Below the pieces are notes generated by a model. It ran no database searches, had not been told where the DNA came from, and saw only the letters and a list, made by a program, of their open reading frames with translations. DNA of 64,000 nucleotides from Candidatus Doudnabacteria bacterium RIFCSPHIGHO2_01_FULL_46_24 (GTDB taxonomy: Bacteria > Patescibacteriota > Doudnabacteria > UBA920 > O2-02-FULL-48-8): positions 2,027-66,026 of the forward strand of contig MFEL01000012.1 in assembly GCA_001777575.1 (NCBI GenBank), in the 5' to 3' direction. The first letter of the stretch is position 1. Every line of letters starts with the position of its first letter. Both the position numbers and the translations under genes were made by a program. Below are positions 1-17,001 of this stretch, piece after piece.

Positions 1-81
1 ATGGTACGACCCTTCACTGCCCTAAACTGATTTTTGACCCACTCTTTATGATTCATAACTCATTTAATTTTTATTGGCCAA

Positions 82-741
82 CTAGGTTTTATTTTGTTGG
101 TTTGGCGTTATTGCTCTAAGCAGCGCATCCGTCAATTGTATTGTTTGAGAAAATAGTTGCTCGCAATTGATAAGGTATTCATGGTCAATAATAATTCTCT
201 TGCCCTCGCTGTATCCTTCTGGTCTCAGCTCTTGTTTCGGTGGATCTCCAACCGGAATAAAACTGATCGCTGAATGAGCAAACAAGTTTCTAACTTTTCT
301 GACTTTATCTAAATTGATTAGTAACGCTTTGCAGTCTTTATCTCCAATTAATTTATGTTGTGTTGAAAGTTTTTTAAAAATTCTATACTTATCACTAAGG
401 CTCAAATCTTTTATTACTTCGTATAAAAATAGCGAAGAAAGATCGCTCACCTTTAAGTCACCTTTATCTTTATCAATCTTCAGAAGATGTTCCGGGAAAA
501 ATAAATGCTGAAGCAGCGAATCGAGCATTAGTTCAATCTGGATACATGCGGCCAACGTTCTCCCTCGAAGCTCTTTTATTTTTTTCTCTTGCTGTTGCCA
601 ATCTCTGTCCAAGCGTTCATCCACCATAACCTTTGCGCCGGGCGCTAATTCAATCCACCCATCCACAATAGGTGGTTGTGATTTCTTGTTATCATGAGAG
701 TTAGATTTTTTGTCCATTTTCGAGTAATTTTCGTTAGCCAA
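82..741 (-). CDS. HEPN-domain protein (putative RNase, Abi-like), last gene of the hsd operon
   Basis: 219-aa ORF, TTG start in track (internal ATG gives MDKKSN...). Contains RNLFAHS = Rx4H HEPN motif near the C-terminal third. Begins 4 bp after the upstream gene stop, so co-operonic. Confidence 0.45.
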   Translation of the reverse strand: MANENYSKMDKKSNSHDNKKSQPPIVDGWIELAPGAKVMVDERLDRDWQQQEKKIKELRGRTLAACIQIELMLDSLLQHLFFPEHLLKIDKDKGDLKVSDLSSLFLYEVIKDLSLSDKYRIFKKLSTQHKLIGDKDCKALLINLDKVRKVRNLFAHSAISFIPVGDPPKQELRPEGYSEGKRIIIDHEYLINCEQLFSQTIQLTDALLRAITPNQQNKT

Positions 742-744
742 TTA

Positions 745-1902
745 TTATTCATAAGGACTAATTTTTACAAACGATTCTCCTCTATCAAGCAAGTCTGAAT
801 AAGTTAGAATTTCTATACCATGCAAAGAATGATTTAACTTACGCAATGCTTCTTTTTTATATACATTCCAACCCTTGCTTTGTCCAATCAATATAAAAGC
901 CCTCGGTTTAAGCATTAAGCACTCTTTCTCATAAACTCTTTTGATCTCATTTTGGATCTCGAACCTTTGCCTATCTATTTCTCCAAGGTAATTTACCACT
1001 TGTCCAATTGCTTGATTTGCTTCTTTAGACCAAATCCAAGACCCGGGATGGCCTGAGTCTTCTTCCACAATTTCGGGTATCGGTAATTTAATCTCTAAGA
1101 TATCAACAAACCCATCCAATGTCGGAAATAAATAATCCGGCATTATTCCTGTGATATTTATTTTTTGCTTTTCGATAGGCGTCTCGTAATTAATCCCGAA
1201 CAACCAATTATGTTTATAGATCCACTTTTGCCAAAAATCATCTCCGGCTGTTTCAGAAAAAGTACTGTTACTAAGGCGATTCTTTAATTCATCAATAACC
1301 TTTTTCCTATGAACTTGCAATCTACCGGCAGAAAGCCTCTCAGTTAATTCAGGATCTTTGGTATTTGCTAGATCCCAAAATTCCTGTGAAAATCCTTTAT
1401 CTAATAATTGCTCTATTACGGCTTTTTTGTTTTCGTCATCAACCAATATAACTCTATTTTTATCTACAATTGTTGGCGTACTAATGCTTTGCAGCTTCTG
1501 TATTAATTCGTTCTTTGTTTCTGGGTTAAGGCTAGAGAAAATCTCGTCACCTGATGAACCAGCTATAACATCTTTTTTATCACTCTCTGAATAATGCTTT
1601 AACTTCCGAGCCAGAAATGCTTGAGTTCTGTTTTTTCCACTTTGAGCAATATTCTTACAAAAATCTTGGTAAACTTTTAAATTTATTACTAACTTATTAT
1701 CTTCCTGATAAAAATCGGCAGTCTCTGTTAATGTAAGAAAAATTTCTTTTCCCTGGTTATCTTCAAGATAGTGCGATAGACTAAGGTGGTAGTCAAAAGT
1801 CTTACTGAGATGTCCAGTATATTCTCTAATATCAAAATCGAAGAGTAGTTGTGTGTTGTTCTTCTTGTATCTTTTGAAAAAGGTAAACTTTGAAAAATCC
1901 AT
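745..1902 (-). CDS. Shedu-like (DUF4263) PD-(D/E)xK nuclease domain protein
   Basis: 385 aa. C-terminal PDYLFPTLDGFVDILEIKLP fits a D...E.K PD-(D/E)xK core, followed by the KPRAFILIGQSKGW/NHSLHGIEILTYSDLL segment typical of DUF4263. No Walker motifs. Tightly coupled to hsdM (5-bp gap). Confidence 0.5.
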   Translation of the reverse strand: MDFSKFTFFKRYKKNNTQLLFDFDIREYTGHLSKTFDYHLSLSHYLEDNQGKEIFLTLTETADFYQEDNKLVINLKVYQDFCKNIAQSGKNRTQAFLARKLKHYSESDKKDVIAGSSGDEIFSSLNPETKNELIQKLQSISTPTIVDKNRVILVDDENKKAVIEQLLDKGFSQEFWDLANTKDPELTERLSAGRLQVHRKKVIDELKNRLSNSTFSETAGDDFWQKWIYKHNWLFGINYETPIEKQKINITGIMPDYLFPTLDGFVDILEIKLPIPEIVEEDSGHPGSWIWSKEANQAIGQVVNYLGEIDRQRFEIQNEIKRVYEKECLMLKPRAFILIGQSKGWNVYKKEALRKLNHSLHGIEILTYSDLLDRGESFVKISPYE

Positions 1903-1906
1903 AAAG

Positions 1907-3331
1907 TTATAAAATATCTCTTATGCCTACAATACTGCTTCTGATTTTTCCTTCATTCTGTTCAATCGCTTGAATCAACTGCTCAGGTGATTTATTTGAT
2001 GTCTCGTCTTTACGATTTGGATTCTTGAAATCCAAATTAAAATTTCGTCCGCGGATTTGGTCTATACCCACTTTCCAGGCAAACTCATTTTCTGTCCGTT
2101 TATGCCACCATTTTTTGACTGGTTCAAATTCGGCATCAGTAATGCCGCGATTCTTCGTATATTGCTTCAGCCCTGCAGGCAATGGCAATTCGTAATACCA
2201 AACTTCCTTGGTCGGCTTGCCTTTGTCAAAAAAAACCAAATTAGTATTTACCCCAGCGTACGGGTTAAATACACCTTGCGGCAGACGCACTATTGTATGT
2301 AAATTATATTCTTCGAGCAATTTTTCTTTGATCCGGGACTTCACGCCTTCGCCAAATAGCGAACCATCCGGAAGTACGATGCCGCATCGGCCAGTTGGTT
2401 TGAGTAAGTGCATGAACAAAACTAAAAACAAATCAGCGGTTTCTTTGGTCCGGAAGGATTGCGGAAAATTATCCTCTGTTCCATCTTTCACGGATCCACC
2501 AAATGGCGGATTGGCAACAATCACGTCCACTCGATCTTTAGGCCCATAATCTCGAAGGGGCTTGGATAACATATCTCCCCTGCGGACCTGCTCTGGGATT
2601 TCTACACCATGCAAAATTAAATTGGTAATGGCCAGCAAATGCGGCAATGGTTTAAGCTCTACTCCTTGGACATTGGATTCCAAAGTTTGTTCTTGTTTTT
2701 TGGTTTTCACTTCAGCACTTCGGATGTGTTGCAAAGCGCTAACTAAGAAACCGCCAGTACCACAAGCTGGATCCAAAATTTTCTCGCCAAGCTTAGGATC
2801 CACCATTTGCACGATAAATTTAGTCAGCGGACGCGGCGTATAGAATTCACCTGCGTTGCCAGCGTTTTGTAATTCTTTGAGCAAATGTTCATAAATTTCA
2901 TTAAAGTGATGCCGATCGTCCTGACTGTTGAAATTAATTTCATTTAACTTATTCGCGACTTGCCGGATTAGTGTCCCAGACTTCATGTAATTATAACTAT
3001 CTTCAAACACTTCTCGGACAATCGCCCCGCGTTGATTGGCAGCAGAAATGGGCAGATCCTTCAACTGTTTGAAAAGTTTATTATTTATAAAATCCAAAAG
3101 CTCATCCCCGGTAATTCCTTCGGGATTAGCTGCCCAATTTCGCCAACGTAACTTTTCGGGAATTGGAGATTTATATTTCGGATCAATTAACTCGTATTCT
3201 TGCTCTTTATCGTCAAAAATCTTCAAAAAAAGCATCCAGACCAGTTGGGAAACCCTTTGGGCGTCGCCATCCACACCTGCGTCTTTGCGCATGATATCCT
3301 GAATTGACTTGATTACGTTTTGTAATGACAT
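1907..3331 (-). CDS. hsdM: Type I restriction-modification N6-adenine DNA methyltransferase subunit M
   Basis: 474 aa. IVANPPFGGS catalytic motif, AdoMet motif LDPACGTGGFLV, HsdM N-terminal domain. 4-bp overlap with hsdR stop. Confidence 0.9.
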   Translation of the reverse strand: MSLQNVIKSIQDIMRKDAGVDGDAQRVSQLVWMLFLKIFDDKEQEYELIDPKYKSPIPEKLRWRNWAANPEGITGDELLDFINNKLFKQLKDLPISAANQRGAIVREVFEDSYNYMKSGTLIRQVANKLNEINFNSQDDRHHFNEIYEHLLKELQNAGNAGEFYTPRPLTKFIVQMVDPKLGEKILDPACGTGGFLVSALQHIRSAEVKTKKQEQTLESNVQGVELKPLPHLLAITNLILHGVEIPEQVRRGDMLSKPLRDYGPKDRVDVIVANPPFGGSVKDGTEDNFPQSFRTKETADLFLVLFMHLLKPTGRCGIVLPDGSLFGEGVKSRIKEKLLEEYNLHTIVRLPQGVFNPYAGVNTNLVFFDKGKPTKEVWYYELPLPAGLKQYTKNRGITDAEFEPVKKWWHKRTENEFAWKVGIDQIRGRNFNLDFKNPNRKDETSNKSPEQLIQAIEQNEGKIRSSIVGIRDIL

Positions 3332-3334
3332 AGT

Positions 3335-5686
3335 TTAAACTTTATAAATTGAGGTCTCAATTTCCTTGATTGCGGACAAATATTTTTCTCGGCCACCGAA
3401 GATTATATTTACGATTTCATAAGGGGTACCGAATTTCGGAAAAGGTGAGACTTGTAAGTCATCAATGCTATCGATAGCGGTAATTCCCGCGTCAGCATAT
3501 TTTTCAATCAAGGCATCAATCACTTCTCGTGCCTTACCTTCATACTTAGCAAAATAATTTCTTTTTTTCACATTATCAGCTCTTTCTTTACGAGTCAGTG
3601 GCGGTTTACCAAAAGCTAAATGACAAACTAAATCGAAAGGATCCAGATCTTTTCCTATTTCCTTTTCTAATTCTTCAAAAATCACTCCTCGGGATTCAAG
3701 TTCGTTAATTATTGCTTCTTTTTTCTCGGCATTAGTCCAAGCTTTGAGAAAATCATCTAAAGATTTGTGTTCGCTCAAAATATTTTTCTTTGAATAATCT
3801 TTCAACGACTCAGTAATCAACTTGCCGTTTTCGTCCATATATTGGACGCGCTCATTAATAATCTTAACCGCAACGTTATTTACATAATATTTCTTTAGGT
3901 TTCCGCCCGGACCATCTATGATTATTATATCCGAACCTGAACCTTCAGTCGTTCCTGTGTCGTCAGGAGGGCCATCAGTCCCGGGTGGAGGATCTATAGG
4001 ATCATCGCCTTTTGGTTCATAAACTACAACCGGGTCACCATCGAAATCCGGATCGGAAAATAGTTCCGTCGCATTTCGAAAATCTAAAATTGTGAAATAA
4101 AACTTGTGATAATCCTCGCGAATCCGAGTACCGCGGCCAATGATTTGCTTGAATTCGGAAACAGAATTGATATTCGTATCCAGCACGATTAATTCGCAAG
4201 TTTGGGCATCGACTCCCGTAGTCATAAGCTTCGAGGTCACGGCAATCACCGGATAGACACTTTCTGGATCAATAAAATTATCCAACTCTTTTTTGCCTTC
4301 GTCGTTATCTCCAGTGATTCGAACGACATAACGGCGATTTTCTGCAACCAATTCAGAATTTTGATTTACTAACGCTTGGCGCATGCGCTCGGCGTGATCA
4401 ATATCTACACAAAATACAATGGTTTTTTGGTACGGGTTCGTACTCTTTAGATATTCGCTGATTTTACTCGCGACTAGCTGCGTTCGCTCATCAATGACTA
4501 AATTGCGGTCATAGTCCTTAGCGTTATAAATCCGATCCGGAACTTCATTACCATATTTATCGGTTTTGCCAATTTCTGGACGATATCCTTCGACGTCGCG
4601 ATCAAGAGTTAAACGGATCACTTTATATGGCGCCAAAAACCCATCTTCAATTCCTTGTTTCAAAGAATATGTATAAATCGACTCACCAAAATAACTTTGA
4701 GTTGAGATGTCCTTGGTTTCTTTCGGAGTGGCAGTCAAGCCAATTTGAGTGGCACTCTTGTAATAATCCAAGATTTCACGCCAAGCCGAATTATCTTTCG
4801 CGCTCCCTCGATGACATTCATCCACAATGACTAAATCAAAAAAATCTGGAGAAAATTGCTTGAAAATATTATTTTCTTCTTCGGTTCCAGTTAACCCCTG
4901 GTAAAGCGCTAAATAAATTTCGTATGCTTTATCGACGTTGCGGTGTTCAATCTTAACCATCTTATCGCCAAAGGGTACAAAGTCGTTATTTCTAGTTTGG
5001 TTCGCCAGAATATTACGATCAACCAAGAACAAAATCCGTTTTTTGGTTTTGGATTTCCATAACCGCCAAATGATTTGAAACGCGGTGTATGTTTTACCTG
5101 TACCTGTAGCCATGACTAATAATAATCGCTTTTGACCTTTGGCTACAGCTTCGACGGCTCGATTAATTGCAACTCTTTGGAAATAACGAGGCTCCTTGCC
5201 TCCTACTTCTTGATAATAGTCCTGGTCAATTATTTGCCCAATACGTTCATTAATATTTTTTGCTTTTTTGTATCGCTCATATAACTCAGTTGGAGACGGA
5301 AACGATTCAAGACTAATTTCATTCTCAATTTTCCCCTTTGTTATTGTACGATCATGTTCTAAAAACGCTTTACCGTTTGAACTATAGACAAATGGAATAT
5401 CAAGTGCTTCGGCGTAAGCTAAGCCTTGTTGCATTCCATCACCCACTGAATGATCTGGGTCTTTGGTTTCGATAAGGGCTAGTGGTAAATCATTTTTGTA
5501 ATAAAGAATAACGTCAACACGCTTGCCTTCACCCCGCTTAACTGTTTTTCCATGAACAATAATTCGGCCCGCGGTAAAATAATACTGCTCACGTATCTGT
5601 GTTTGCAGGTCCCATCCCGCAGTGGTAACAGCGGGGATAATAAATTTAGTGCTGATATCTTGTTCAGTTAGGTATGCTTTTCGCAT
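3335..5686 (-). CDS. hsdR: Type I restriction enzyme R subunit (short form)
   Basis: 783 aa. N-terminal PD-(D/E)xK (VDVILY...ALIETKD), Walker A LVMATGTGKT, DEAH box VIVDECHR, helicase C-terminal motifs. Confidence 0.85.
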   Translation of the reverse strand: MRKAYLTEQDISTKFIIPAVTTAGWDLQTQIREQYYFTAGRIIVHGKTVKRGEGKRVDVILYYKNDLPLALIETKDPDHSVGDGMQQGLAYAEALDIPFVYSSNGKAFLEHDRTITKGKIENEISLESFPSPTELYERYKKAKNINERIGQIIDQDYYQEVGGKEPRYFQRVAINRAVEAVAKGQKRLLLVMATGTGKTYTAFQIIWRLWKSKTKKRILFLVDRNILANQTRNNDFVPFGDKMVKIEHRNVDKAYEIYLALYQGLTGTEEENNIFKQFSPDFFDLVIVDECHRGSAKDNSAWREILDYYKSATQIGLTATPKETKDISTQSYFGESIYTYSLKQGIEDGFLAPYKVIRLTLDRDVEGYRPEIGKTDKYGNEVPDRIYNAKDYDRNLVIDERTQLVASKISEYLKSTNPYQKTIVFCVDIDHAERMRQALVNQNSELVAENRRYVVRITGDNDEGKKELDNFIDPESVYPVIAVTSKLMTTGVDAQTCELIVLDTNINSVSEFKQIIGRGTRIREDYHKFYFTILDFRNATELFSDPDFDGDPVVVYEPKGDDPIDPPPGTDGPPDDTGTTEGSGSDIIIIDGPGGNLKKYYVNNVAVKIINERVQYMDENGKLITESLKDYSKKNILSEHKSLDDFLKAWTNAEKKEAIINELESRGVIFEELEKEIGKDLDPFDLVCHLAFGKPPLTRKERADNVKKRNYFAKYEGKAREVIDALIEKYADAGITAIDSIDDLQVSPFPKFGTPYEIVNIIFGGREKYLSAIKEIETSIYKV

Positions 5687-5906
5687 AAAAAATTGAGCTT
5701 AAACTTTTCTACTTCCAACGCGCCACTCGACTGGCGCATTGGAGGACTTGCTGGGAAGCAGGTCTTTTTGCCTGGGATAATTCCGACGCCGATTGGCCAG
5801 CCTCGCCTAGCGAGTCTAGGCGGGCGGGTTCGGAGTATCTCGCCTTAGGCGAGATAAAAATTCAAGCTTTTTTTCGACTAAAAGTAAGCTAATAATGCCA
5901 CTTTTT
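5687..5906 (-). repeat. Conserved 5' leader element, copy 1 (upstream of hsdR), with 139-bp hairpin-rich insertion
   Basis: 5687-5750 and 5890-5906 align with 6757-6820 and 6824-6840. Conserved stem-loop tccaaCgcgccaCTCGACtggcgcAttgga at 5714-5743. Insertion 5751-5889 carries two 7-bp hairpins (cgcctag..ctaggcg, tctcgcc..ggcgaga). Confidence 0.6.
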
Positions 5907-5969
5907 GCATAAATTTACTAGAACCTGACTATTGACATAAAAGTCTAGTTGGTATATGGTATATTTACG

Positions 5970-6022
5970 GTATTCGAAAAAGGCGTCGGCTCTATTGGCC
6001 GATGGCCTTTTTCATTTTAGCC
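5970..6022 (-). terminator. Rho-independent terminator after DUF3800 gene (bidirectional A/T-flanked hairpin)
   Basis: aaaaaggcgtcggctctattggccgatggcctttttcatttt: GC stem flanked by A-tract and T-tract, overlapping the 3' end of ORF 5992-6756. Confidence 0.5.
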
Positions 6023-6756
6023 AAAAATCCGTCCGGTTTATGATGATGTATATTAAATCCGTAATTTCGAAAATTTGAAGTTAATGTAGATACTCCCAAG
6101 TTCCTCTTGAATTGCTCTTTAAAATACATCTTGGCCTGCGAAGGCAAAGGGATTAATTTCTCATTTATCAAAAGCTCATAATTAATGCTGCCAACCAATA
6201 AATCTGTAAGTTGCAAAAGATCATTTGAACGCGAATCCAACCGGCAAACTCCGGCAATTGCCAATCTACTGAATTCATTATTTATTCTGTTTTTAATATT
6301 TACCTCAAACCTTGATCTTTTTGGACTTACTACGTTGTCAGCCAACACAGTCAAAACTTCATTTTTTCGTAGATTGCCTTTAATTAACTCCTGAGCAATT
6401 TGTTCGTATGCAAAAAATGGGTCGCTATGATAATTTTCTTTAAAATACTTGCTCCTCTTGTCAATACTATATGAGGAAAAATGAATGCTATGGGTAGCAA
6501 ATAATGCTGATAAAATTTCCAAAGCAACGGGTAGCTTTGCCTTATTTAGATCATTAAACTTTACTTCCCACCAAAATTGATTTTTCTCCCTGATGTACCG
6601 GATCTTCTGCTGTAAAAAGTAAGGCTGAGAAACTTTAACCATACCCACCGTAAAATATGGCTGAGATTTCTGATCCAGCGTACCTGATTCGTCCAAAAAA
6701 CAAAACGGCGTCCAAATTTGCCTGAAATCTTTAATCGTTAGATTATTTTCTGCCAT
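5992..6756 (-). CDS. DUF3800 family protein
   Basis: 254 aa. N-terminal CFLDESG motif and QLTDLLVGSI motif characteristic of DUF3800. Start codon directly abuts leader element copy 2. Confidence 0.6.
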   Translation of the reverse strand: MAENNLTIKDFRQIWTPFCFLDESGTLDQKSQPYFTVGMVKVSQPYFLQQKIRYIREKNQFWWEVKFNDLNKAKLPVALEILSALFATHSIHFSSYSIDKRSKYFKENYHSDPFFAYEQIAQELIKGNLRKNEVLTVLADNVVSPKRSRFEVNIKNRINNEFSRLAIAGVCRLDSRSNDLLQLTDLLVGSINYELLINEKLIPLPSQAKMYFKEQFKRNLGVSTLTSNFRNYGFNIHHHKPDGFLAKMKKAIGQ

Positions 6757-6845
6757 AAAAAATTGAGGTTAAACTACTCTAGTTTTCAACACGCCAGTCG
6801 AGTGGCGCGTTGGAAATATACTCTAATAATGCCACTTTTTGGGCA
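6757..6845 (-). repeat. Conserved 5' leader element, copy 2 (upstream of DUF3800 gene)
   Basis: aaaaaattgagGttaaact...caacacgccaGTCGAGtggcgcGttgga...taataatgccacttttt. Stem preserved with loop substitutions relative to copy 1. TATAAT (RC of 6853-6858) immediately upstream in mRNA sense. Confidence 0.6.
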
Positions 6846-7040
6846 AAAATACAATTATAAACGCCCCACATAAGTGGAGCGCTGGATCGGCTTTCACAGG
6901 AAAACGAGATTAGGTTTTACTCGCAATCCGAAGATTGTTTCAGAATTCAAGTTCGGTGTTACATTCAAAATTGGATCCCGGATCGCCCTCCCTTGTGTTT
7001 AAGCTCTTGGGGTCGTGGCGTCCGGGATGGGGCCTGCGGG

Positions 7041-7799
7041 CTAATTCTTCGCCATATAAAACTTTCTCTGTTTTTCTGGGAATTTTTCGATGGCGTAGCG
7101 GAGCATGGTGCGGGGCATGATTTTGTAATGCTTTTTGAGGAATTTGATCTCTGTTGGCAGGGAGCGGTTGCCGACTTCGCGCAGCATCCAGCCTACGGCT
7201 TTATGGATGAGGTCGTGCTTGTCTTGCAGTAAAATTTCCGCGATTTCCAAAGTTTTGGCAAATTGATTTTGCTTGATGAAGTGGTAAGTGGCGATGATGG
7301 CAACCCGGCGCTCCCAGAGATTTTGGGATCTTGCCAGTTTGTTTAGAATTCCTGTCGGCTTGCCAAGCAAGTAAGCGCCCAAGATTTTGTCAGCGCTAAG
7401 ATCAACTAAATCCCAGTTGTTCACGCGATCGATATGGTCCAAGTAAAATTTATAGATTCTAGTTTTTTGGCTTTGCTCGCCGCGATTGAATTGAATGACC
7501 AAGATCAAAAACCCAATCTGCCGCTCCTCGTGGATTTTTGACTTAAGCAGCGTTTCGATCTCGCGAAAACCAAGATGCGAATACTTTTTTGCCAAGAGGC
7601 GCTGAGTGGCAGAATTGAGGCCCACAAATTGATCGCCATAACCGTATTGGCCTTTTCCGGTTTTAAAAAACCATTGCGAGCTTGTGGCTCGCTTTGGGTC
7701 AGCCAACTTTTTAATATCTTTAGTTAAAGATTTAAGCGAAGGATTGTAAGTGATTATACTAAGGCCGGATATTAAATGGCTTTTTATTGGCTTCCACAA
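7041..7799 (-). CDS. DNA alkylation repair protein (AlkD/AlkC-like HEAT-repeat)
   Basis: 252 aa. Family-typical motifs (WFFKTGKGQYGYGDQFVG, WDLVD, LRYAIEKFPE) of the Pfam DNA_alkylation family. 40-nt overlap with upstream STAS ORF suggests the start is slightly downstream of 7799. Confidence 0.6.
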   Translation of the reverse strand: MWKPIKSHLISGLSIITYNPSLKSLTKDIKKLADPKRATSSQWFFKTGKGQYGYGDQFVGLNSATQRLLAKKYSHLGFREIETLLKSKIHEERQIGFLILVIQFNRGEQSQKTRIYKFYLDHIDRVNNWDLVDLSADKILGAYLLGKPTGILNKLARSQNLWERRVAIIATYHFIKQNQFAKTLEIAEILLQDKHDLIHKAVGWMLREVGNRSLPTEIKFLKKHYKIMPRTMLRYAIEKFPEKQRKFYMAKN

Positions 7800-8052
7800 G
7801 TATTTTAAGTGTCGCCTGCACCGAAAGGTTATCGCTCGACAAAAGTACCAGACGTTCGCCTAGTTGGTTTAACAATGGACTTAAGAATTCATCAGCCCAT
7901 GATGGCGACAATGTTAAGACGCCAGAAAAATCAACATCCAATGATTCATCAGGGCGAATTTCCCGTAAAGTAGGCTGAAAAGCCTTAAAAGCCTCACTGC
8001 CCAATTCCCGAGATATTAAAGTTTTTCCAAATTTTTCTAACTCTAACTTCAT
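7759..8052 (-). CDS. STAS-like (DUF4325 / anti-sigma-antagonist-like) small protein
   Basis: 97 aa, size and pattern of STAS-like DUF4325. 20 bp downstream of the GHKL ATPase gene. Confidence 0.45.
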   Translation of the reverse strand: MKLELEKFGKTLISRELGSEAFKAFQPTLREIRPDESLDVDFSGVLTLSPSWADEFLSPLLNQLGERLVLLSSDNLSVQATLKILVEANKKPFNIRP

Positions 8053-8072
8053 AAATGTTTATAAAATATTAA

Positions 8073-8801
8073 TTAAAATTCTATTTTTGCTAAACACCCT
8101 CTCGGGTTGTTTTGGCCACGAGTAACCTGAAACACCTTATCAGAACCCTGCATTCTCACTTCCGCATCCCCGCTGGTAAAAAACAGGTCAATGGGTTGGC
8201 TGAGAACAATTTCGCGAACAGATTTAAGTCCATTTCCTCGTTTCTCTGGCGCGCGACCTGATATGAATTCGGTAAACGCAACCTGGACCGCGGTAACATG
8301 ATTCGGAAGGTCGGGACGAACTTGCCTTAATGTCTCTAAGATGCCTAAACCCCGATCGGCAAGAACAATAATTCTTTTTTGAAGATCATACCCAAAAAAA
8401 ATTCCGGGCGTATCTGGCCACTTGCCTAAATTATGAGCAAAAGAATTATCGCCAATCTCTCCTGTAACTAAGACGATCAAGGAATACAATTTCTCAAATC
8501 CTGGTTTTTGCACCAATTCGTATTCCATTTTAGAAAGCTTGGCATTAAAAATTGAGCTTGTCTGGCAATAGAACTTGCCAGGGAATTCAGAATTATTTTG
8601 TGTCCATTCCGAGGCAAATTTAAAAAGATCGCTCGAAAAAATTTCAAGATCTTTTTCCCGGTAATACCTGTGCTTCCCGCCTTCTTTTCGAATCGCAATT
8701 AACTTACCACTTTCGTCCCATCGACGCAGTGTATTTTGAGAAACCCCTAAATATCGGGCGGCTTGGCTTATAGTGAGTAATCTTTCATCATCCATGGCCA
8801 T
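8073..8801 (-). CDS. HTH (excisionase/HTH_17-type) fused to GHKL/HATPase_c ATPase (RsbW-like kinase fold)
   Basis: 242 aa. N-terminal TISQAARYLGVSQNTLRRWDESGKL (HTH_17). C-terminal N-box GEIGDNSFAH, G1 DRGLGI, G2 RGNGLKSV. Confidence 0.55.
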   Translation of the reverse strand: MAMDDERLLTISQAARYLGVSQNTLRRWDESGKLIAIRKEGGKHRYYREKDLEIFSSDLFKFASEWTQNNSEFPGKFYCQTSSIFNAKLSKMEYELVQKPGFEKLYSLIVLVTGEIGDNSFAHNLGKWPDTPGIFFGYDLQKRIIVLADRGLGILETLRQVRPDLPNHVTAVQVAFTEFISGRAPEKRGNGLKSVREIVLSQPIDLFFTSGDAEVRMQGSDKVFQVTRGQNNPRGCLAKIEF

Positions 8802-8929
8802 ATCTTAACATAATCCCTAAATCTACACAATATCAATCCAAATCTACCCAAAAGTAGCTAAATCTACCATAATAATAGGGAATAAACACCCCATACGGGT
8901 GTGAGGTTTTAAATCCTTATATAAAACCT

Positions 8930-8955
8930 AAAGCCCCGCATATTGCGGGGCTTTA
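8930..8955 (-). terminator. Rho-independent terminator downstream of metallopeptidase gene
   Basis: aaagccccgcaatatgcggggcttt: perfect 11-bp stem, 3-nt loop, T-rich flank on minus strand. Confidence 0.6.
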
Positions 8956-9123
8956 GCAAAAGTGCGCTATTCCCATGTAGTGTTTTGATTATTCTCTTAA
9001 TTCTCTCCTCAAGACTTAACCGTCTTTTTGGTTTTGCTACAGGGAATGGCCCACTTGCGGCACATCCTGTTGCATCCTGACATCTCTCCTTTCACCTTAA
9101 GTCTATACCCTATTCTAGGCTTG

Positions 9124-9501
9124 TCAAGCTTTTCTTTTGGCTTCCGCCTCACGGACCTCTTCCTCGTCCATGCCAAAATGGTGGGCTATTTCGTGCCAAA
9201 CCGTGTTTTTGACTATTTCCTGCATGTCTTCTGGATTTCTGGCCGCTTGCTCAATGGGCCGCTGAAAAATTGTGATCTTGTCCGGCAACACGCCACCGTA
9301 ATACGGCCCGCGCTTGCCTTGCGGCACGCCTTCATAAAGGCCAAACAAAGTCCAGCCGTGCCGCAGGCGGAGCTTAACTGCCTGCTCGGCGCTGGGCTTA
9401 TCTTCTATGACAATGGCAACATTGTCCAAGAGCTCCAAAAATTTCGGCGGAATCGCTTCAATCCCCTCGGCCACCAATTGTTCAAATTCGTCCTTGGTCA
9501 T
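9124..9501 (-). CDS. Zincin-like metallopeptidase family protein (HExxH)
   Basis: 125 aa. WHEIAHHFG zinc-binding HExxH motif. Size and pattern of the small putative-metallopeptidase (Zincin_1/SprT-like) family. Confidence 0.65.
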   Translation of the reverse strand: MTKDEFEQLVAEGIEAIPPKFLELLDNVAIVIEDKPSAEQAVKLRLRHGWTLFGLYEGVPQGKRGPYYGGVLPDKITIFQRPIEQAARNPEDMQEIVKNTVWHEIAHHFGMDEEEVREAEAKRKA

Positions 9502-9568
9502 TATGTCTTACATTTTAACATATCATTAACTTTTGCTAGAATAATTTTATCCACCAAGGAGGCTTGCC

Positions 9569-9715
9569 ATGAACGCCCAGAATGCCAGGGTTATCGAAAC
9601 CATCAACGAGGCGCTCACAAAAAACAGGCGACGGATAATCGAGCGTCACGCTATCGAGATCGTGATCATCATCGTTTCCCTCGCCATGGCTTTAGTTTTA
9701 GTCTTCCACTCCTAA
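9569..9715 (+). CDS. Small membrane protein (48 aa), not in the ORF track (below 60 aa)
   Basis: ATG 7 nt after strong SD aaggagg (9546-9552). MNAQNARVIETINEALTKNRRRIIERHAIEIVIIIVSLAMALVLVFHS, one C-terminal TM helix. Confidence 0.4.
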   Translation: MNAQNARVIETINEALTKNRRRIIERHAIEIVIIIVSLAMALVLVFHS

Positions 9716-9773
9716 CCAATCGCCAGCCCCGCGCTTGGTCTTTTTTTTTAGATTAATGACGGTAAAATAGTCA

Positions 9774-9799
9774 TGCTAACATGCTAGCATGTTATAATA
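9774..9799 (+). promoter_or_regulatory. Perfect 16-bp palindrome aacatgctagcatgtt overlapping a TATAAT -10 box
   Basis: Palindrome at 9778-9793, then TATAAT at 9793-9798. Points rightward into the 330-bp ORF-poor region 9800-10126. Confidence 0.4.
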
Positions 9800-10126
9800 C
9801 AGTCAAGGATAAAAAACAGGCAAGTAAGTGCCTCATATTTTAGGCAATCTTGCTAGCCGAAGGCAAAGCCAACAGTCTGTCTTAGGACGGAAGAAAAAAG
9901 AAGCGCCGTTTCCCTCCTCCTAGGGGGGCGTGCGCGGGTGTGAGTCATGAAGCAATGGGCTGAGGATATTTGAGAACAGACTCCACGCCACCCAAAGCCA
10001 GAATGGAATCTGCAGAAGCACGACAGTGAAAGCGTGGCACCCGAACTCTTTGGCGACCACTGTCGAACTCATCCATACGAGATTCACGCAAACTGTCGCC
10101 GAGCCGCCAATTGGCGGAGGCAATTT

Positions 10127-10155
10127 TCAAAGGCTCAACCGTACGGTTGAGCCTT
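10127..10155 (-). terminator. Rho-independent terminator after anti-sigma-like gene
   Basis: aaaggctcaaccgtacggttgagccttt: perfect 12-bp stem, 4-nt loop. Confidence 0.6.
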
Positions 10156-10168
10156 TGCTGGTCTAAAA

Positions 10169-11614
10169 TTAATTGTTTGGCCGGACTTCGGCTTCGGGAA
10201 TATCCAGGCCGGGAAGCGGCATGGGCTTAATGATTGGCGCTTCTGGCTGGCTGTCCAGAACATCCTTGACCAAGGGGACGATGACGCTGCTTCCATAGAA
10301 GCCGTCCGCGGCAGACTTGATGGGGAAGATCAGAGATGGCACAAAGATATCCTCCCATTTGCCGCCCAAATCATGCCACAGCCTGACTAAGCCGCGGAAC
10401 GGTGTGTTCAATTCCACAATTTCGGTTTTGGCGCCTGGCTCGCTGTAAGGATACCAAGTGCGGAAACCGCCGCGCTCGGCAATCGCCTTAATCCGACTGA
10501 CATCGGTCTCGACGTCGTAAGCTGAGGCTTCATAGCGCTGGTTAGTCAGCTCGGAGACTGATGAGACCCTATTAACTCTAACACTGTAAGTTACGAACAT
10601 GCCGTTTTTGTTACCGCCCTCGTCATAGATTTCAGCCCCGGCCACTTTCAGCGGATAGACTACAGAGACGACATCAGGAATGTAATAGGACATTTTGTCC
10701 GACGACGAAAGTCTTTCGTAATCCAGCTTCCAGTAATTCTGGACCATGGGCTCACCGAAGTTTTCCCGGCCGATGCCGTATTCGTCGAGGAAAGCGTTGG
10801 TGGCGGCAATCACGGCTTCATCAGCCGGGATCTGCTCGGGCCTGAGCCGATACTGCTCATAGCACTCCGGGGTTTGGCATTGCCGGTCCGGAGTTTGCCA
10901 CCGCTCCCAGTTCTCAGAAATGTTAATTGTTCCTTCCTTAAGGTCGACATTGAGGCCATAGCCGAAATCGCGATCCTCAGCCACACGGAAGTATTCCAGT
11001 TTGCTTTGGCCGAATTTACCGGCGTCAAAAATTTGGACCGCGAACTGGCTGATGAATTCGTTGAAATCAACGCTGCCGAACCCTTTTACGCGGCGGTAGA
11101 CTTCCATTTTGTCTTGATCAATGCCGAAGTCCTCGCCGGCATACACGAATTTGTAATTGGTGGGAACCGGCATGATGCTGCTGCCGCCGCCAAAACCAGC
11201 GCTGCTTCTTTCCGCTTCCAAAGCCGCGGGTAAAGCCGCGTCTGCAGGCCCACCGCCCCCGCCGCCCTGGCCTTTGGCGGAGACGGACACTTTGGTCAAC
11301 GCGCCAAACGCCCCTTCGCCGGCAAGAGCGATCTCCTGCTTGCCAGGCAGCAGAACTTTGTCGCTGCCCGATAGCACGGCGATCAATGCCACCGCCGCAA
11401 TCACTGCCCCGGCAATGGCGAATTTGAATCTGCTCATAAAGTTAAAATTCTGAGTTAATAATTGTTTCTCTTCCCGGGCCATATGCCCAGACAATTGGGC
11501 TCTCAGTCTTAGCGCAAACTTTGGGTCAGGTTTTTCCTGGCTTTGAATTGACCGTAATTTGGCCATCAAAAGCTCGGTCTGTTCGTCTTCAAATTGTTCG
11601 CGGTTGTCGTTCAT
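10169..11614 (-). CDS. Putative anti-sigma factor / membrane protein with large extracytoplasmic domain
   Basis: 481 aa. Overlaps ECF sigma gene by 4 bp. Cytoplasmic N-terminus, single TM (FKFAIAGAVIAAVALIAVL), Gly-rich linker, large C-terminal domain. Confidence 0.4.
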   Translation of the reverse strand: MNDNREQFEDEQTELLMAKLRSIQSQEKPDPKFALRLRAQLSGHMAREEKQLLTQNFNFMSRFKFAIAGAVIAAVALIAVLSGSDKVLLPGKQEIALAGEGAFGALTKVSVSAKGQGGGGGGPADAALPAALEAERSSAGFGGGSSIMPVPTNYKFVYAGEDFGIDQDKMEVYRRVKGFGSVDFNEFISQFAVQIFDAGKFGQSKLEYFRVAEDRDFGYGLNVDLKEGTINISENWERWQTPDRQCQTPECYEQYRLRPEQIPADEAVIAATNAFLDEYGIGRENFGEPMVQNYWKLDYERLSSSDKMSYYIPDVVSVVYPLKVAGAEIYDEGGNKNGMFVTYSVRVNRVSSVSELTNQRYEASAYDVETDVSRIKAIAERGGFRTWYPYSEPGAKTEIVELNTPFRGLVRLWHDLGGKWEDIFVPSLIFPIKSAADGFYGSSVIVPLVKDVLDSQPEAPIIKPMPLPGLDIPEAEVRPNN

Positions 11615-12138
11615 GGTTTTGCGCCAATTAATGCCTGCCGCAGGCTCGATATCGCCCGCGAGAACATGACCTTTGAATTGGCTTCGGAAACGTTCAGGAT
11701 CTGGGCAATTTCCTTGTGCGACAGATCATCCCAGATGCGCAGGAGGATGATTTCCCGCTGCTGCGGTTGAAGTGCGGCAAGAAATTGCTTGACCGATTCG
11801 GCATCCAAGGCCCGGTCCAGCCCGTTGGCTAAATTTTCGCCGCTCACAACCTCTACTGATCCAATATCAAATGTGGGCTGATTGCGGCGGTAATGGTCAA
11901 TTAACGCGTTTCGCGCAATCGCATATACCCAAGGCTTAAAACCGGCGCCGTGTTCGCGAAAAGTGCCGACGCGCTTGACTATGTTGGTAAACACGGTGCT
12001 GACGATGTCCTCGGCTGTCTGCTTGTGCCGGACGCGGTTGTAAACAAATGCGTAGATTTTGGGCAGGTAAACTTCGTAGAGCTCATCGAAGTTTGACCAA
12101 TTCCCCATCTGGCACTGTTTAGCTATGTCTGATTCCAT
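11611..12138 (-). CDS. ECF-type sigma-70 family RNA polymerase sigma factor
   Basis: Region 2 (YLPKIYAFVYNRV...AEDIVSTVF) and region 4 (LSHKEIAQILNVSEANSKVMFSRA). Probable start at internal Met (MESDIAK); track ORF extends to 12228. Confidence 0.75.
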   Translation of the reverse strand: MESDIAKQCQMGNWSNFDELYEVYLPKIYAFVYNRVRHKQTAEDIVSTVFTNIVKRVGTFREHGAGFKPWVYAIARNALIDHYRRNQPTFDIGSVEVVSGENLANGLDRALDAESVKQFLAALQPQQREIILLRIWDDLSHKEIAQILNVSEANSKVMFSRAISSLRQALIGAKP

Positions 12139-12193
12139 GGAATTCCATATAGTAATACGTATGAACCGCAAAATGGTAACAATTTTGGCCAGA

Positions 12194-13890
12194 TCACCAG
12201 CTTCCGCCGCCTCCGCCGCCAAAACCACCGCCCGCTCCGCCGCCGCTAAAGCCGCTGCCGCCTGTGGCGGCGCTGCTGGGTGAAACGGCCTGGGTGGAAG
12301 CTACGGCAAAACCATTCAGGCTTTTGGAAAACGCGATGGCGCTGAAAGTGCCCATACTCGGATCCGAATACCACGAAGGGTTTTGGTTATAAATGCCCTC
12401 AAACTGCCTGGCCCATGCTTTTTCCACGCCCAAAACCATGGCAAAGGGCAAAAGCTTTTCGAATCGAGTGGGATTTAGCTCAGGCGCGTTGTGAAATGCC
12501 AGACGATCCTTCTCCGCGACTGTAATGTATTCCTTCAACCCCAAAACTTGCCGCTTCGCCTCGGCTCCTTTGGCTGTCAGAGCTGGCATGAATTGGGCGA
12601 AAACAAGCAGCAGTATGCCAGTCGGGATCACCCCAATTAAACCCAAAAGACCAACCAACGGCAGAAGTATGGACAAAAAAAATCCAAGGACTATCAGAAC
12701 TCCGCCCCACACCGAATACTTGATCCGAATCTTGTTGGGGTTGCCGGCAAAATAGCCCTTTTGCGTCAGGTCTTGATAGAGCTTGTCTGAAATTTTTTTA
12801 GCTGTTTTGTAAAAATCATCAGGCAGCTCTGAAATCAATATTTCCGGCTTGTCGCCGAACAACTTGTTCAAAAGATCGTTTTCATGAGGCGGCAACGCGG
12901 CAGCGTTTGGCAGGCGGACTAGTTTGTAGTCACTGACGCCCAAAAACTTTTTTTCGGCACCTTTTCGATTTTCAAAAATTCCAGCACCGCCAGATGGATG
13001 ATTTCGGACGATAAATCCTTTTTGTTGACTCGGCCGTCAATAATCGTGCCAACCTCGGCCGGCGTCAAATCCGAAGGCGGATCATACTCGGCCACAATCG
13101 GACTCTGGCCTTTGGGATCGCGGCCAAATTTCCACCAGCGGTGAAGGAGCCAAATCAAAACCAGCAGTGGGATGAGTAATGGCCAAAAAGTCTGAAGTCG
13201 GCGGAAGAATATCTGCATGGCGGTAGGCTGGGCCACCACATTTTTGGGAAAGCCGAACGCAAACGTCAGACCTTCACCCGGCTGCAGGTGAGAGTCGGCA
13301 AACTGAACCGAGCCGTCCGACAAAACTTCAGTTTGAACACAAGATGTGTTTGATCCAAATGAACCGCGGAAGCAATCCAGCTTCAAGTCTTTCTCAGCCA
13401 CAAATTGTGGTAAAAAAACCTGCGCGAACACGGACTCGATGGGCACTTGCCAGTCCGTGCCAGTGACGTTCCAATAAAGCTCATCATGCTCTTCAAAGTA
13501 ATTGATCGCGCCTTTAATCGTATAGCTGATGGCAAACGTCTGTTTCCCGCTTATCAGCTCATTAGTATTGCCGATTTTGATTTGCTTGTTTTTACCAGAA
13601 CCTAATAGTTGAAACGGCTCCGGCTTATCATTGCGCGAGACGGCAACATCCGATATCCGCAGCTTATCCAGCGGGATGTCCCGGTAAATGCCGTGGCGCG
13701 ACAAAACGCCGAAATTATAGACAATGGTTTCTTCGACGAGCAAGGAGGCATTAGGCTGGATATGGATGACTACATCAAAAGCCTCAATTTGCTCCGGCTG
13801 ATCCGAATCCTGCGTCTCGTGCGCAAAAGTTGGCAAAACCAAAACCAGCGCTGTGAGCAAAGCAACAATTAAAATAACAGCTCTTCGCAT
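12194..13890 (-). pseudogene. DUF2207-family membrane protein split by a frameshift (two overlapping ORFs 12919-13890 and 12194-12943)
   Basis: N-terminal fragment: signal peptide plus extracellular domain plus TM. C-terminal fragment: TM helices plus Gly-rich tail GGGFGGGGGGSW. Frames switch near the T7 homopolymer at 12947-12953. Could be a sequencing error. Confidence 0.5.
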
Positions 13891-13899
13891 ATTGACTTG

Positions 13900-16155: not shown

Positions 16156-16319
16156 CGTCTAAACCTTTTTGTTTCGCAGTCAGCCAGAGAAACCAGAAGT
16201 AATATTTAAAGCCAATTTATAAATTACGGATTGCGAATTGCGGATTAATTCATAATTCTCTAATTTGCTCAAAATAACACCTCTGCTGTCCAGCTTATGC
16301 GAAAATTAATTACTTAATT

Positions 16320-16345
16320 AGATCCCGGATCGGAGTCCGGGATGG
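16320..16345 (-). terminator. rpsO terminator / pnp leader hairpin
   Basis: gatcccggatcggagtccgggatggtc: 8-bp stem atcccgga/tccgggat immediately after the rpsO stop. Same stem sequence recurs at 6970-7025. Confidence 0.55.
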
Positions 16346-16349
16346 TCGA

Positions 16350-16616
16350 CTATTTGTTGAGCTTGAGTTTGTCGACCAGCTTCTCGTGCCGCTTTTCATC
16401 TTCGGCTTTCAAATATCGCAGCAAGCGGCGGCGGTTGCCGACCATCTTCAGCAACCCGCGGCGCGAGTGGTTGTCTTTTTTGTGCTGCTGCAAATGCTCG
16501 GAAACCTTTTCGATCTCCCGGGTCAAGATCGCCACCTGCACTTCCGGGCTGCCAGTGTCATCCTTGTGGACCTGAAACTTTTTGATGATCTGGTCTTTCT
16601 CCTTGGGCGTTAACAT
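16350..16616 (-). CDS. rpsO: 30S ribosomal protein S15
   Basis: 88 aa, S15 size and charged helical pattern with a [16 protein letters not shown]-like helix 3. Classic rpsO-pnp arrangement. Confidence 0.95.
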
Positions 16617-16671
16617 CTTTTGCTCCTTGCGTCACGAAACAGCCAGGAAAGTGCTGTCCGTGGATTAAATA

Positions 16672-16998: not shown

Positions 16999-17001
16999 GC
17001 C

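What the first reader, a model, noticed from the sequence alone, without database searches (positions are those of the whole stretch)
82..5686. Type I R-M operon with a Shedu-like PD-(D/E)xK nuclease and a HEPN protein in the position where hsdS would sit
hsdR, hsdM, a 385-aa DUF4263/Shedu-like nuclease and a 219-aa HEPN (RNLFAH) gene form one translationally coupled operon (4-5 bp junctions). No hsdS is seen in the window. This echoes the prrC/rloC anticodon-nuclease insertions in hsd loci, but here a DNA-nuclease-like effector is paired with a HEPN RNase-like protein. I am not aware of this pairing as a described module. It could be a restriction-linked abortive-infection module, or an R-M variant that uses a non-canonical specificity or effector subunit.
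Basis: partly seen in the sequence, partly recalled or inferred. Interest (0 to 1): 0.72.

Follow-up and report, generated by a model that had tools for sequence, protein, structure and literature searches.

The report
Type I restriction operon carrying defence cargo
This is a complete type I restriction-modification operon of a candidate-phylum bacterium; its specificity gene lies just outside the window, and unrelated anti-phage genes (a Shedu DNA nuclease and a probable HEPN RNase of an undescribed family) sit between its methylase and specificity genes, an arrangement that is already well documented.

Summary
The gene calls are right. On the minus strand, hsdR (5686..3335), hsdM (3331..1907), a true Shedu SduA nuclease (1902..745) and a 219-aa (more likely 211-aa) protein with an invariant RNxFAH motif (741..82) lie 3-4 nt apart.

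The interpretation mostly fails. A public contig 100% identical to window 1..11902 (Candidatus Doudnabacteria MAG, GCA_001779995.1) continues past the window start. The operon reads hsdR-hsdM-sduA-X219-X127-DUF6309-hsdS-X182-X209, so a normal two-domain hsdS lies about 1 kb beyond the edge. Nothing replaces it.

SduA and X219 are not a module:
- None of eight other X219 contexts has SduA. They follow type I or type II R-M genes, Gabija-like helicases or an OLD-like ATPase, or stand alone.
- Close SduA relatives occur without X219, once as hsdM-sduA-hsdS-hsdR.

Published work already reports Shedu inside R-M loci (602 of 5,499 genes), HEPN genes linked to R-M (at least 16 clades) and cargo genes embedded in type I R-M.

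What remains new is modest. X219 belongs to a small uncatalogued family (142 clusters at 50% identity) that is probably HEPN. I read it as a stand-alone abortive-infection RNase. Verdict: new member of a known kind, interest 0.3.

The parts
3335..5686 (-). hsdR, type I restriction subunit (783 aa; N-terminal nuclease region, SF2 helicase, EcoEI_R_C tail)
   Evidence: Pfam ResIII 3.1e-44, EcoEI_R_C 1.7e-34, HSDR_N 6.5e-09. PADLOC REase_I PDLC03049 E=0 over residues 3-783.
1907..3331 (-). hsdM, type I N6-adenine methyltransferase (474 aa, NPPF motif present)
   Evidence: Pfam N6_Mtase 1.8e-71, HsdM_N 9.2e-14. PADLOC MTase_I 3.9e-210. 3-nt spacer after the hsdR stop.
745..1902 (-). sduA, Shedu nuclease (385 aa). 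N-terminal and linker regions resemble B. cereus Shedu; C-terminal PD-(D/E)xK domain with D256, E270, K272, Q301.
   Evidence: Pfam SduA_C 4.6e-18. PADLOC SduA PDLC00390 1.1e-92. Family profile hits B. cereus Shedu 8TI8 at 2.7e-11 over residues 21-350. The AF2 model's best Foldseek hits are SduA structures 8PS5, 8PS4, 8TI9 and 8TI8. Catalytic residues are invariant in 28 homologues.
82..741 (-). X219, probable HEPN-domain protein of an uncatalogued family. The ORF runs from a TTG at 741; the likely real start is the ATG at 717 (211 aa). Rx4H motif R151-N-L-F-A-H156.
1..56 (-). First 18 codons of X127, the next gene of the operon (127 aa, minimal HEPN-like protein, motif LRKMRNRMVHD); it runs off the window start.
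   Evidence: Window 1..11902 is 100% identical to L017. The gene is called at L017 11847-12230. Sub-threshold hits to five HEPN Pfam families and to PADLOC CARF_HEPN, Csm6 and the AbiA C-terminus.
5715..5742 (.). 27-nt palindrome about 30 nt upstream of the hsdR start codon. It could be an operator or a 5'-UTR hairpin at the head of the operon. A second copy lies at 6786-6813, upstream of the neighbouring DUF3800 gene.
   Evidence: the repeat finder pair I1. Pattern search finds exactly these two sites, with 0 expected by chance. RNA folds have z-scores of -3.0 and -3.9.

Best explanation
The locus is a complete, ordinary type I R-M operon that also serves as a carrier for independent defence genes. 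It comes from a Candidatus Doudnabacteria genome and lies in a low-GC island.

The full order, read on an identical public contig, is hsdR-hsdM-[sduA-X219-X127-DUF6309]-hsdS-[X182-X209]. The genes are separated by 28 nt or less or overlap, so they are presumably co-transcribed from the hsdR promoter. This co-transcription is inferred.

Proposed roles:
1. HsdM2-HsdS methylates self DNA, and HsdR2M2S restricts unmethylated DNA (established knowledge of type I R-M).
2. SduA acts on its own as a Shedu nuclease: an autoinhibited oligomer whose N-terminal domains gate a PD-(D/E)xK domain that cuts invading DNA. This follows from the solved B. cereus and E. coli Shedu structures. Here only homology and intact catalytic residues are shown.
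3. X219 is most likely a stand-alone HEPN ribonuclease that dimerises to form an Rx4H active site. It would be latent until infection and then cleave tRNA or mRNA to abort infection, as the single-protein HEPN defence HepS does. This step is inferred.

Co-expression gives layered defence: restriction first, then a DNA nuclease, then an RNase suicide step. SduA and X219 neither depend on each other nor replace an R-M subunit.
For: - hsdS is present: L017-L021 are 99.98-100% identical to the reverse complement of window 1..11902 and extend it. hsdS is at L017 12749-13939, with Methylase_S 4.5e-25 in two stretches and Specificity_I 2.5e-84.
- SduA is a bona fide Shedu.
- SduA is autonomous. Its closest full-length relatives (57-61% identity) occur as hsdM-sduA-hsdS-hsdR without X219 (L025) and as stand-alone genes (L023, L027).
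- X219 is independent of SduA. Relatives at 53-77% identity follow a GajB-like helicase and overlap hsdS (L009/L010). Others follow N6_N4_Mtase plus HinfI (L006), MTase_II plus REase_II (L007), AbiEii plus an OLD/AriA/GajA-like ATPase (L001) or a GajB-like helicase (L012), or lie among unknown genes (L008, L031). A distant member sits among housekeeping genes (L029).
- Literature: 602 of 5,499 Shedu genes lie inside R-M systems, type I included (10.1101/2023.08.10.552793). At least 16 HEPN clades are linked to R-M (PMC3710099). Type I R-M frequently holds embedded genes (10.1101/2024.01.29.577857). TgvAB, embedded in a type I R-M operon, needs both of its genes but confers anti-phage defence without the R-M genes (PMC11411939).
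Against: - Nothing here is experimental.
- The context samples are small: 8 for X219 and 3 for close SduA relatives. A weak preference for pairing cannot be excluded.
- The very tight gene spacing, and the recurrence of X219 relatives directly after DNA-targeting systems (4 of 8 after R-M genes), would also fit functional coupling to the upstream system.
- Co-transcription is inferred from spacing and from the lack of convincing internal terminators.
Confidence: 0.8

Rival explanations
1. X219 (and perhaps X127 and X182) is a PrrC-like guard. It binds the R-M complex, or whichever DNA-targeting system is encoded upstream, and is held inactive by it. When a phage anti-restriction factor disables that system, the HEPN RNase is released and kills the cell.
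For: X219 relatives sit directly downstream of R-M genes in 4 of 8 contexts: the window, L009 (overlapping hsdS), L006 and L007. In three more they follow other DNA-targeting defence genes (L001, L010, L012). The PrrC-EcoprrI precedent and its proposed generalisation to R-M-linked HEPN clades are published (PMC3710099). A strongly conserved N-terminal motif (PPxDSWIxLxPG) that AF2 leaves unstructured could be a docking peptide.
Against: The upstream partners are unrelated to one another (type I, two type II families, an OLD-like ATPase, UvrD-like helicases), so a single specific protein-protein contact is hard to imagine. One member lies among housekeeping genes (L029). X219 lacks the ABC-ATPase regulatory domain that defines PrrC/RloC. 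Defence-island clustering alone could produce these neighbourhoods.
Confidence: 0.2
2. SduA and X219 form an obligate two-component system, a DNA nuclease plus an RNase or sensor partner, analogous to the two-gene KELShedu system.
For: The genes are adjacent, 3 nt (or 27 nt) apart and on the same strand. Two-gene Shedu systems do exist (KELA/KELB, PMC12577705).
Against: No co-occurrence was found elsewhere: 0 of 8 X219 contexts and 0 of 3 close SduA contexts. This SduA has a full-length N-terminal region that aligns with single-gene B. cereus Shedu. The KELShedu partner is a 12.6-kDa dsDNA-binding protein encoded in a bicistronic operon with the nuclease, 3 bp away, and is not HEPN.
Confidence: 0.04
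3. This is an R-M variant in which SduA or X219 replaces HsdS or acts as an alternative effector subunit of the type I enzyme.
For: Only the absence of hsdS from the window itself.
Against: A canonical hsdS with two target-recognition domains lies in the same operon on the identical contig. SduA shows no Methylase_S homology. HsdR keeps its own nuclease and helicase domains.
Confidence: 0.01
4. X219 is a non-catalytic HEPN-like helical protein, for example an MtlR-type regulator or an adaptor, and not a nuclease.
Against: The catalytic-type R-N-x-F-A-H motif is nearly universal across a family with only about 25% mean identity, which argues for selection on an active site. The genomic neighbourhoods are mostly defence genes (7 of 9), not metabolic operons.
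Confidence: 0.1

Closest known systems
Shedu (SduA, DUF4263) single-gene defence nuclease, including the reported cases embedded in R-M systems (Gu et al., 10.1101/2023.08.10.552793)
   Same: The SduA_C domain scores above Pfam's threshold. All PD-(D/E)xK motif residues are present. Profile and fold match the solved B. cereus and E. coli SduA. The gene lies between hsdM and hsdS, as in relative L025 and in the published class of 602 R-M-embedded Shedu genes.
   Different: Nothing essential differs. It is a divergent CPR-bacterial member (15-16% identity to the solved proteins), and its N-terminal domain is modelled only moderately well.
PrrC / RloC anticodon nucleases embedded in type I R-M loci
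   Same: A probable HEPN RNase encoded inside an hsd operon, and the proposed logic of a second-line abortive response behind restriction.
   Different: X219 is 211-219 aa and has no ABC-ATPase domain. Its family also occurs next to type II R-M, Gabija-like and OLD-like genes and alone. There is no detectable sequence relationship to PrrC.
HepS, the single HEPN-domain abortive-infection protein of prophage Gifsy-1 (PMC13043305)
   Different: Sequence similarity is not significant (E 0.44). The motif sits at H105 in HepS and at H156 in X219. X219 has an extra conserved N-terminal motif and a beta insert after the motif. It is not prophage-borne, and nothing was found in phage or viral collections.
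Defence genes embedded in type I R-M, BREX or DISARM operons (Payne et al., 10.1101/2024.01.29.577857; TgvAB in Vibrio cholerae VPI-2, PMC11411939)
   Same: Cargo genes interrupt an otherwise complete hsd operon and are co-oriented with it. The cargo includes known defence systems and nuclease-like unknowns.
   Different: The insert here is unusually rich: four genes between hsdM and hsdS and two after hsdS, three of them carrying Rx4H motifs. X219, X127, X182, X209 and DUF6309 match no defence-candidate model in PADLOC-DB v2.
KELShedu two-component Shedu (PMC12577705)
   Same: A Shedu nuclease with a tightly linked second gene.
   Different: The KELA partner is a small dsDNA-binding protein that binds the nuclease's N-terminal beta-sheet. 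X219 is a HEPN-like protein that is not conserved next to SduA.

Membership tests
Type I restriction-modification system | HsdR with an SF2 helicase motor and a nuclease region | tested here: met
   ResIII 3.1e-44, Helicase_C, HSDR_N, EcoEI_R_C; PADLOC REase_I E=0
Type I restriction-modification system | HsdM N6-adenine methyltransferase | tested here: met
   N6_Mtase 1.8e-71, HsdM_N 9.2e-14, MTase_I 3.9e-210
Type I restriction-modification system | HsdS specificity subunit with two target-recognition domains in the same locus | tested here: met
   Absent from the window. Present at L017 12749-13939 on a contig 100% identical to window 1..11902: Methylase_S 4.5e-25 in two stretches, Specificity_I 2.5e-84
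Type I restriction-modification system | Sequence-specific methylation and ATP-dependent restriction | not testable with these tools
   Needs methylome data or biochemistry
Shedu (SduA) | DUF4263 / SduA_C domain above the curated threshold | tested here: met
   PF14082 66.3 bits against a cutoff of 27; PADLOC SduA 1.1e-92
Shedu (SduA) | PD-(D/E)xK motifs II, III and IV (D, ExK, Q) intact | tested here: met
   D256, E270, K272 and Q301 are invariant in 28 homologues and align with the B. cereus motifs
Shedu (SduA) | Fold matching solved SduA structures | tested here: met
   Top Foldseek hits are 8PS5 (4e-10), 8PS4, 8TI9 (TM 0.75 on the nuclease domain) and 8TI8
Shedu (SduA) | Works as a single gene, with no obligate partner | tested here: inconclusive
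   Close relatives occur alone (L023, L027) or within hsd operons without X219 (L025). Function was not assayed.
HEPN superfamily (X219) | Conserved Rx4-6H motif | tested here: met
   R151-x4-H156. H156 is invariant and R151/N152 are at least 90% conserved in 50 diverse members. The strict RN.[FLIMV][AVGST]H form is present in 129 of 155 members
HEPN superfamily (X219) | All-alpha up-down helical bundle matching HEPN structures | tested here: inconclusive
HEPN superfamily (X219) | Significant profile match to a curated HEPN family | tested here: not met
   No Pfam hit for X219 at E up to 0.1. Only 5 of 50 relatives give weak hits to HEPN_RiboL-PSP, HEPN_Cthe2314 or DUF4145 (best 2e-4)
HEPN superfamily (X219) | Metal-independent RNase activity | not testable with these tools
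   Needs biochemistry
PrrC / RloC anticodon nucleases | N-terminal ABC-type ATPase fused to the C-terminal HEPN nuclease | tested here: not met
   X219 is 219 aa with no ATPase or P-loop domain hit in Pfam, PADLOC or NCBIfam
PrrC / RloC anticodon nucleases | Constant linkage to a type I R-M locus (PrrC) | tested here: not met
   Only 2 of 9 family contexts are type I R-M
KELShedu two-component Shedu | Small dsDNA-binding partner (KELA) in a bicistronic operon with the nuclease and binding it | tested here: not met
   The gene upstream of sduA is hsdM. The gene downstream is a HEPN-like protein that is not conserved with SduA

The most novel reading that the evidence does not exclude
X219 would found a new family of ATPase-less, stand-alone HEPN abortive-infection nucleases. 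The family would be recruited specifically to the 3' side of DNA-targeting defence systems (type I and type II R-M, Gabija/OLD-like). It would use its conserved N-terminal PPxDSWIxLxPG segment and post-motif beta insert to sense failure or inhibition of those systems, as a generic guard of restriction. The Doudnabacteria operon, with three different Rx4H proteins plus Shedu, would then be a multi-layer fail-safe built around one type I enzyme.
Probability: 0.15. Interest if true: 0.55.

Novelty: new member of a known kind. Interest (0 to 1): 0.3.

Why it matters
The main value is corrective. A window edge made a standard operon look as though it lacked hsdS, and the apparent Shedu-HEPN module dissolves once related loci are examined. 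The locus is a clear, cargo-rich example of defence genes embedded in a type I R-M operon, and it comes from a CPR (Patescibacteria) genome, a group whose immune repertoire is little studied. It also points to a small family of about 200-aa proteins with a near-universal RNxFAH motif that no curated library used here (Pfam, NCBIfam, PADLOC, PHROGs) covers. If that family is shown to be a defence RNase, it would add one more entry to the catalogue of HEPN abortive-infection effectors, and possibly a compact model for how such effectors are triggered.

Tried and rejected
- Fetching the window's own contig by exact look-up of the 219-aa ORF product failed: that sequence is not on record in the gene-position index, and some gene callers use the 211-aa ATG start instead. 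Look-up through SduA succeeded.
- The metagenome scan with the X219 alignment returned only 5 loci, all already known contexts.
- The viral-contig scan found none.
- tblastn of X219 against phages and plasmids, and of two distant members against plasmids, found no match.
- A cluster look-up of ten distant members returned only unnamed environmental proteins.
- The afdb50 fold library was unavailable.
- Foldseek of the X219 model against PDB was uninformative.
- hhalign of the X219 family profile against X127, X182 and the L008 neighbour aligned only the motif helix, with low probability. I do not claim these are paralogues.
- PDB sequence searches for X127, X182, X209 and DUF6309 found nothing meaningful. 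PHROGs found nothing for any cargo protein.
- An apparent strain variant disrupting X219 (L022) turned out to be a scaffold gap of Ns.
- The 214-aa gene after SduA in L023 is unrelated to X219.
- The 170-aa gene after the X219 relative in L031 is not DUF6309.
- An Rfam scan of window 1-9000 found nothing above noise.

Full report
**Observation**

The minus strand of window 82..5686 carries four consecutive ORFs:
- hsdR, 5686..3335, 783 aa
- hsdM, 3331..1907, 474 aa
- a 385-aa ORF, 1902..745
- a 219-aa ORF, 741..82

The spacers are 3, 4 and 3 nt. HMM scans confirm the first three:
- HsdR: ResIII 3e-44, EcoEI_R_C 2e-34, PADLOC REase_I E=0.
- HsdM: N6_Mtase 2e-71, MTase_I 4e-210.
- The 385-aa protein: Pfam SduA_C 4.6e-18 and PADLOC SduA 1e-92.

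The 219-aa protein ('X219') matches no family in Pfam, NCBIfam or PHROGs and no sequence in the PDB. PADLOC and NCBIfam gave only one weak sub-threshold hit each. It does carry RKVRNLFAHS, which is an Rx4H motif. Its TTG start is doubtful. Every homologue aligns only from residue 9, and other gene callers start at the ATG at window 717, giving 211 aa and a 27-nt spacer.

**Where hsdS is**

SduA is identical to a protein of Candidatus Doudnabacteria bacterium RIFCSPHIGHO2_12_FULL (GCA_001779995.1). Six assemblies carry it. Five of them (L017-L021) are 99.98-100% identical to the reverse complement of window 1..11902 and continue beyond the window start.

The operon continues from X219 as follows:

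| Gene | Size | Main evidence |
|---|---|---|
| X127 | 127 aa | Motif LRKMRNRMVHD; sub-threshold hits to five HEPN Pfam families and to PADLOC CARF_HEPN, Csm6 and the AbiA C-terminus |
| DUF6309 | 170 aa | Pfam DUF6309, 5.5e-39 |
| hsdS | 396 aa | Two Methylase_S stretches, 4.5e-25; Specificity_I 2.5e-84 |
| X182 | 182 aa | Motif HDWRNILAHQF, another Rx4H |
| X209 | 209 aa | D...EIK motif reminiscent of PD-(D/E)xK, seen by eye only |

Neighbouring genes are at most 28 nt apart or overlap (DUF6309/hsdS by 4 nt, hsdS/X182 by 11 nt). The window contains the first 18 codons of X127 at 56..1. Nothing therefore stands in for hsdS. Four cargo genes lie between hsdM and hsdS and two follow hsdS. The window edge created the impression of a missing subunit.

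**SduA**

- A profile of 28 homologues hits B. cereus Shedu (8TI8) at 2.7e-11 over nearly its full length.
- The AF2 model (pLDDT 75) has SduA structures as its nine best Foldseek hits.
- D256, E270, K272 and Q301 are invariant and correspond to motifs II-IV.
- The closest full-length relatives (57-61% identity) occur as hsdM-sduA-hsdS-hsdR with overlapping junctions and no X219 (L025/L026), as a stand-alone gene near a recombinase (L023), and beside two N6_N4 methylases (L027).

This SduA is therefore an ordinary autonomous Shedu that recurrently lands between hsdM and hsdS. Gu et al. already counted 602 of 5,499 Shedu genes inside R-M systems, type I included.

**X219**

The word-indexed search found only 15 close relatives. 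An exhaustive profile search of 1.84 billion representatives found 142 clusters, nearly all stand-alone proteins of about 200 aa.

Conserved features across 50 diverse members at about 25% mean identity:
- an N-terminal PPxDSWIxLxPG segment
- R59-G60, E70, D74, F105 and K118
- L..VR..RNxFAH, in which H156 is invariant

The strict motif is present in 129 of 155 members, and most of the rest have R[SD]xFAH or are fragments.

- AF0298, Swt1, sacsin, AbiF and MtlR/YggD
- HepS, YutE, Csm6 and HEPN-MNT toxins
- HI0074, SO_3166 and RnlA

Foldseek against PDB finds nothing significant. The family profile's best PDB sequence hits are the antiviral protein Ec1Ap (E 0.029) and HepS (E 0.44), and both align exactly on their RNxxxH helices. 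A few members give weak hits to HEPN Pfam families. I take HEPN as probable (about 0.75-0.8) but not proven.

**X219 contexts**

| Relative (locus) | Neighbourhood |
|---|---|
| P0005 (L009/L010) | GajB-like UvrD helicase, X211, then hsdS overlapping the end of X211 |
| P0013 (L006) | N6_N4_Mtase, HinfI endonuclease, X202 |
| P0014 (L007) | MTase_II 4e-56, REase_II 2e-12, X205 |
| P0003 (L001) | AbiEii, OLD/AriA/GajA-like ATPase, X208 |
| P0002 (L012) | GajB-like helicase, X208 |
| P0015 (L008) | Follows a protein with a weak, sub-threshold RiboL-PSP-HEPN hit, beside a giant RHS toxin gene |
| P0008 (L031) | Among unknown genes |
| P0192 (L029), distant member | Among housekeeping genes |

None of these contexts contains SduA, and none contains X127, DUF6309, X182 or X209. 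What does recur is a position just downstream of a DNA-targeting defence system, an R-M system in 4 of 8 cases. That is suggestive, but the sample is small.

**Mechanism**

The best-supported reading is a complete type I R-M operon used as a carrier for autonomous defence cargo:
1. The R-M enzyme restricts unmethylated DNA.
2. SduA adds a Shedu DNA nuclease.
3. X219, and perhaps X127 and X182, add latent HEPN RNases that abort infection.

The existence and identity of the genes are shown. Co-transcription, independence of action and RNase activity are inferred.

The main rival keeps the anatomy but couples X219 to the upstream system, as in the PrrC-EcoprrI guard arrangement that Anantharaman et al. 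generalised to at least 16 R-M-linked HEPN clades. The variety of upstream partners and the housekeeping context argue against a specific physical coupling, but I cannot exclude it (0.2). The options of an obligate SduA-X219 system and of an hsdS replacement are effectively refuted.

**Comparison with known systems**

- The locus is a member of type I R-M (all three subunits present) and of Shedu (all tested features met).
- X219 is not a PrrC/RloC member, because it has no ABC ATPase and no constant hsd linkage.
- It is not a KELShedu partner.
- The closest working analogue is HepS, a 212-218-aa single-HEPN abortive-infection protein that both senses a phage protein and cleaves tRNA. The sequence relationship is not significant, and X219 has its own N-terminal motif and beta insert.
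- Embedding of cargo in type I R-M is documented both systematically (Payne et al.) and experimentally (TgvAB).

**Verdict**

The novelty lies in an uncatalogued, probably HEPN family and in a cargo-rich example from a CPR bacterium. I rate this as a new member of a known kind, with interest 0.3.

Noticed in passing
window 5715-5742 and 6786-6813 (with flanking similarity at about 5652-5918 and 6722-6852): A 27-nt palindrome (CCAAYGCGCCASTCGASTGGCGYGTTG) occurs exactly twice in 64 kb, each about 30 nt upstream of a start codon (hsdR and the DUF3800 gene). It sits in leaders that also share a 39-nt upstream block and the sequence AAGCTCAATTTTTTATG at the start codon. The two copies differ at neighbouring stem positions and keep pairing through G-U wobble only on the sense strand, which hints at an RNA hairpin rather than, or as well as, an operator. 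With only two copies this is weak.
   Followed up: partly
window 5992-6756 (-): A DUF3800 protein (254 aa; Pfam 1.6e-12; PADLOC candidate PDC-M04A 1.2e-24) lies directly upstream of hsdR. It has its own terminator-like hairpin and shares the leader element with hsdR, so it is probably another defence gene of the same island.
   Followed up: partly
window 7041-8801 (-): Three co-oriented genes: a 242-aa protein whose N-terminal HTH matches PADLOC mad1 (6.8e-16) and excisionase/MerR-type HTH models, with its C-terminal ~180 aa unassigned; a 97-aa protein with no family; and a 252-aa DNA_alkylation-repair-like protein. They may be regulators or further island cargo.
   Followed up: partly
window 1 to about 9000; L017 about 2000-18000: The whole region is a low-GC island (32-45% GC) in a genome that runs at 51-56% GC on either side. 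This is consistent with horizontal acquisition of the defence island. Its boundaries and any integrase or tRNA were not examined.
   Followed up: partly
L017 12240-12752 (beyond the window start): The DUF6309 protein (170 aa) between X127 and hsdS ends in HLDGLHRLIAWG. By eye this resembles the DGxHR motif of ParB/DndB-like domains. The resemblance was not tested, and no paper in the library mentions DUF6309.
   Followed up: no
L017 13929-15135 (beyond the window start): Two more cargo genes follow hsdS: X182 with an Rx4H motif (HDWRNILAHQF), and X209 with ADIVME...NVEIKTS, a possible PD-(D/E)xK signature. Neither matches any library or PDB sequence.
   Followed up: partly
L022 6763-6818 (corresponds to window about 550-633): One assembly seems to carry a disrupted X219, but the difference is a scaffold junction with a run of Ns. 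It is an assembly artefact, not a natural pseudogene.
   Followed up: yes
L009 975-985; L025 9161-9164 and 10360-10363: In related loci the cargo gene overlaps the hsdS start (X211/hsdS by 11 nt; sduA/hsdS by 4 nt). This suggests the hsdM-hsdS junction is a preferred insertion point that preserves translational coupling to hsdS.
   Followed up: no
window 55962-63830 (-): A 2,622-aa ORF lies near the far end of the window. It was not examined.
   Followed up: no
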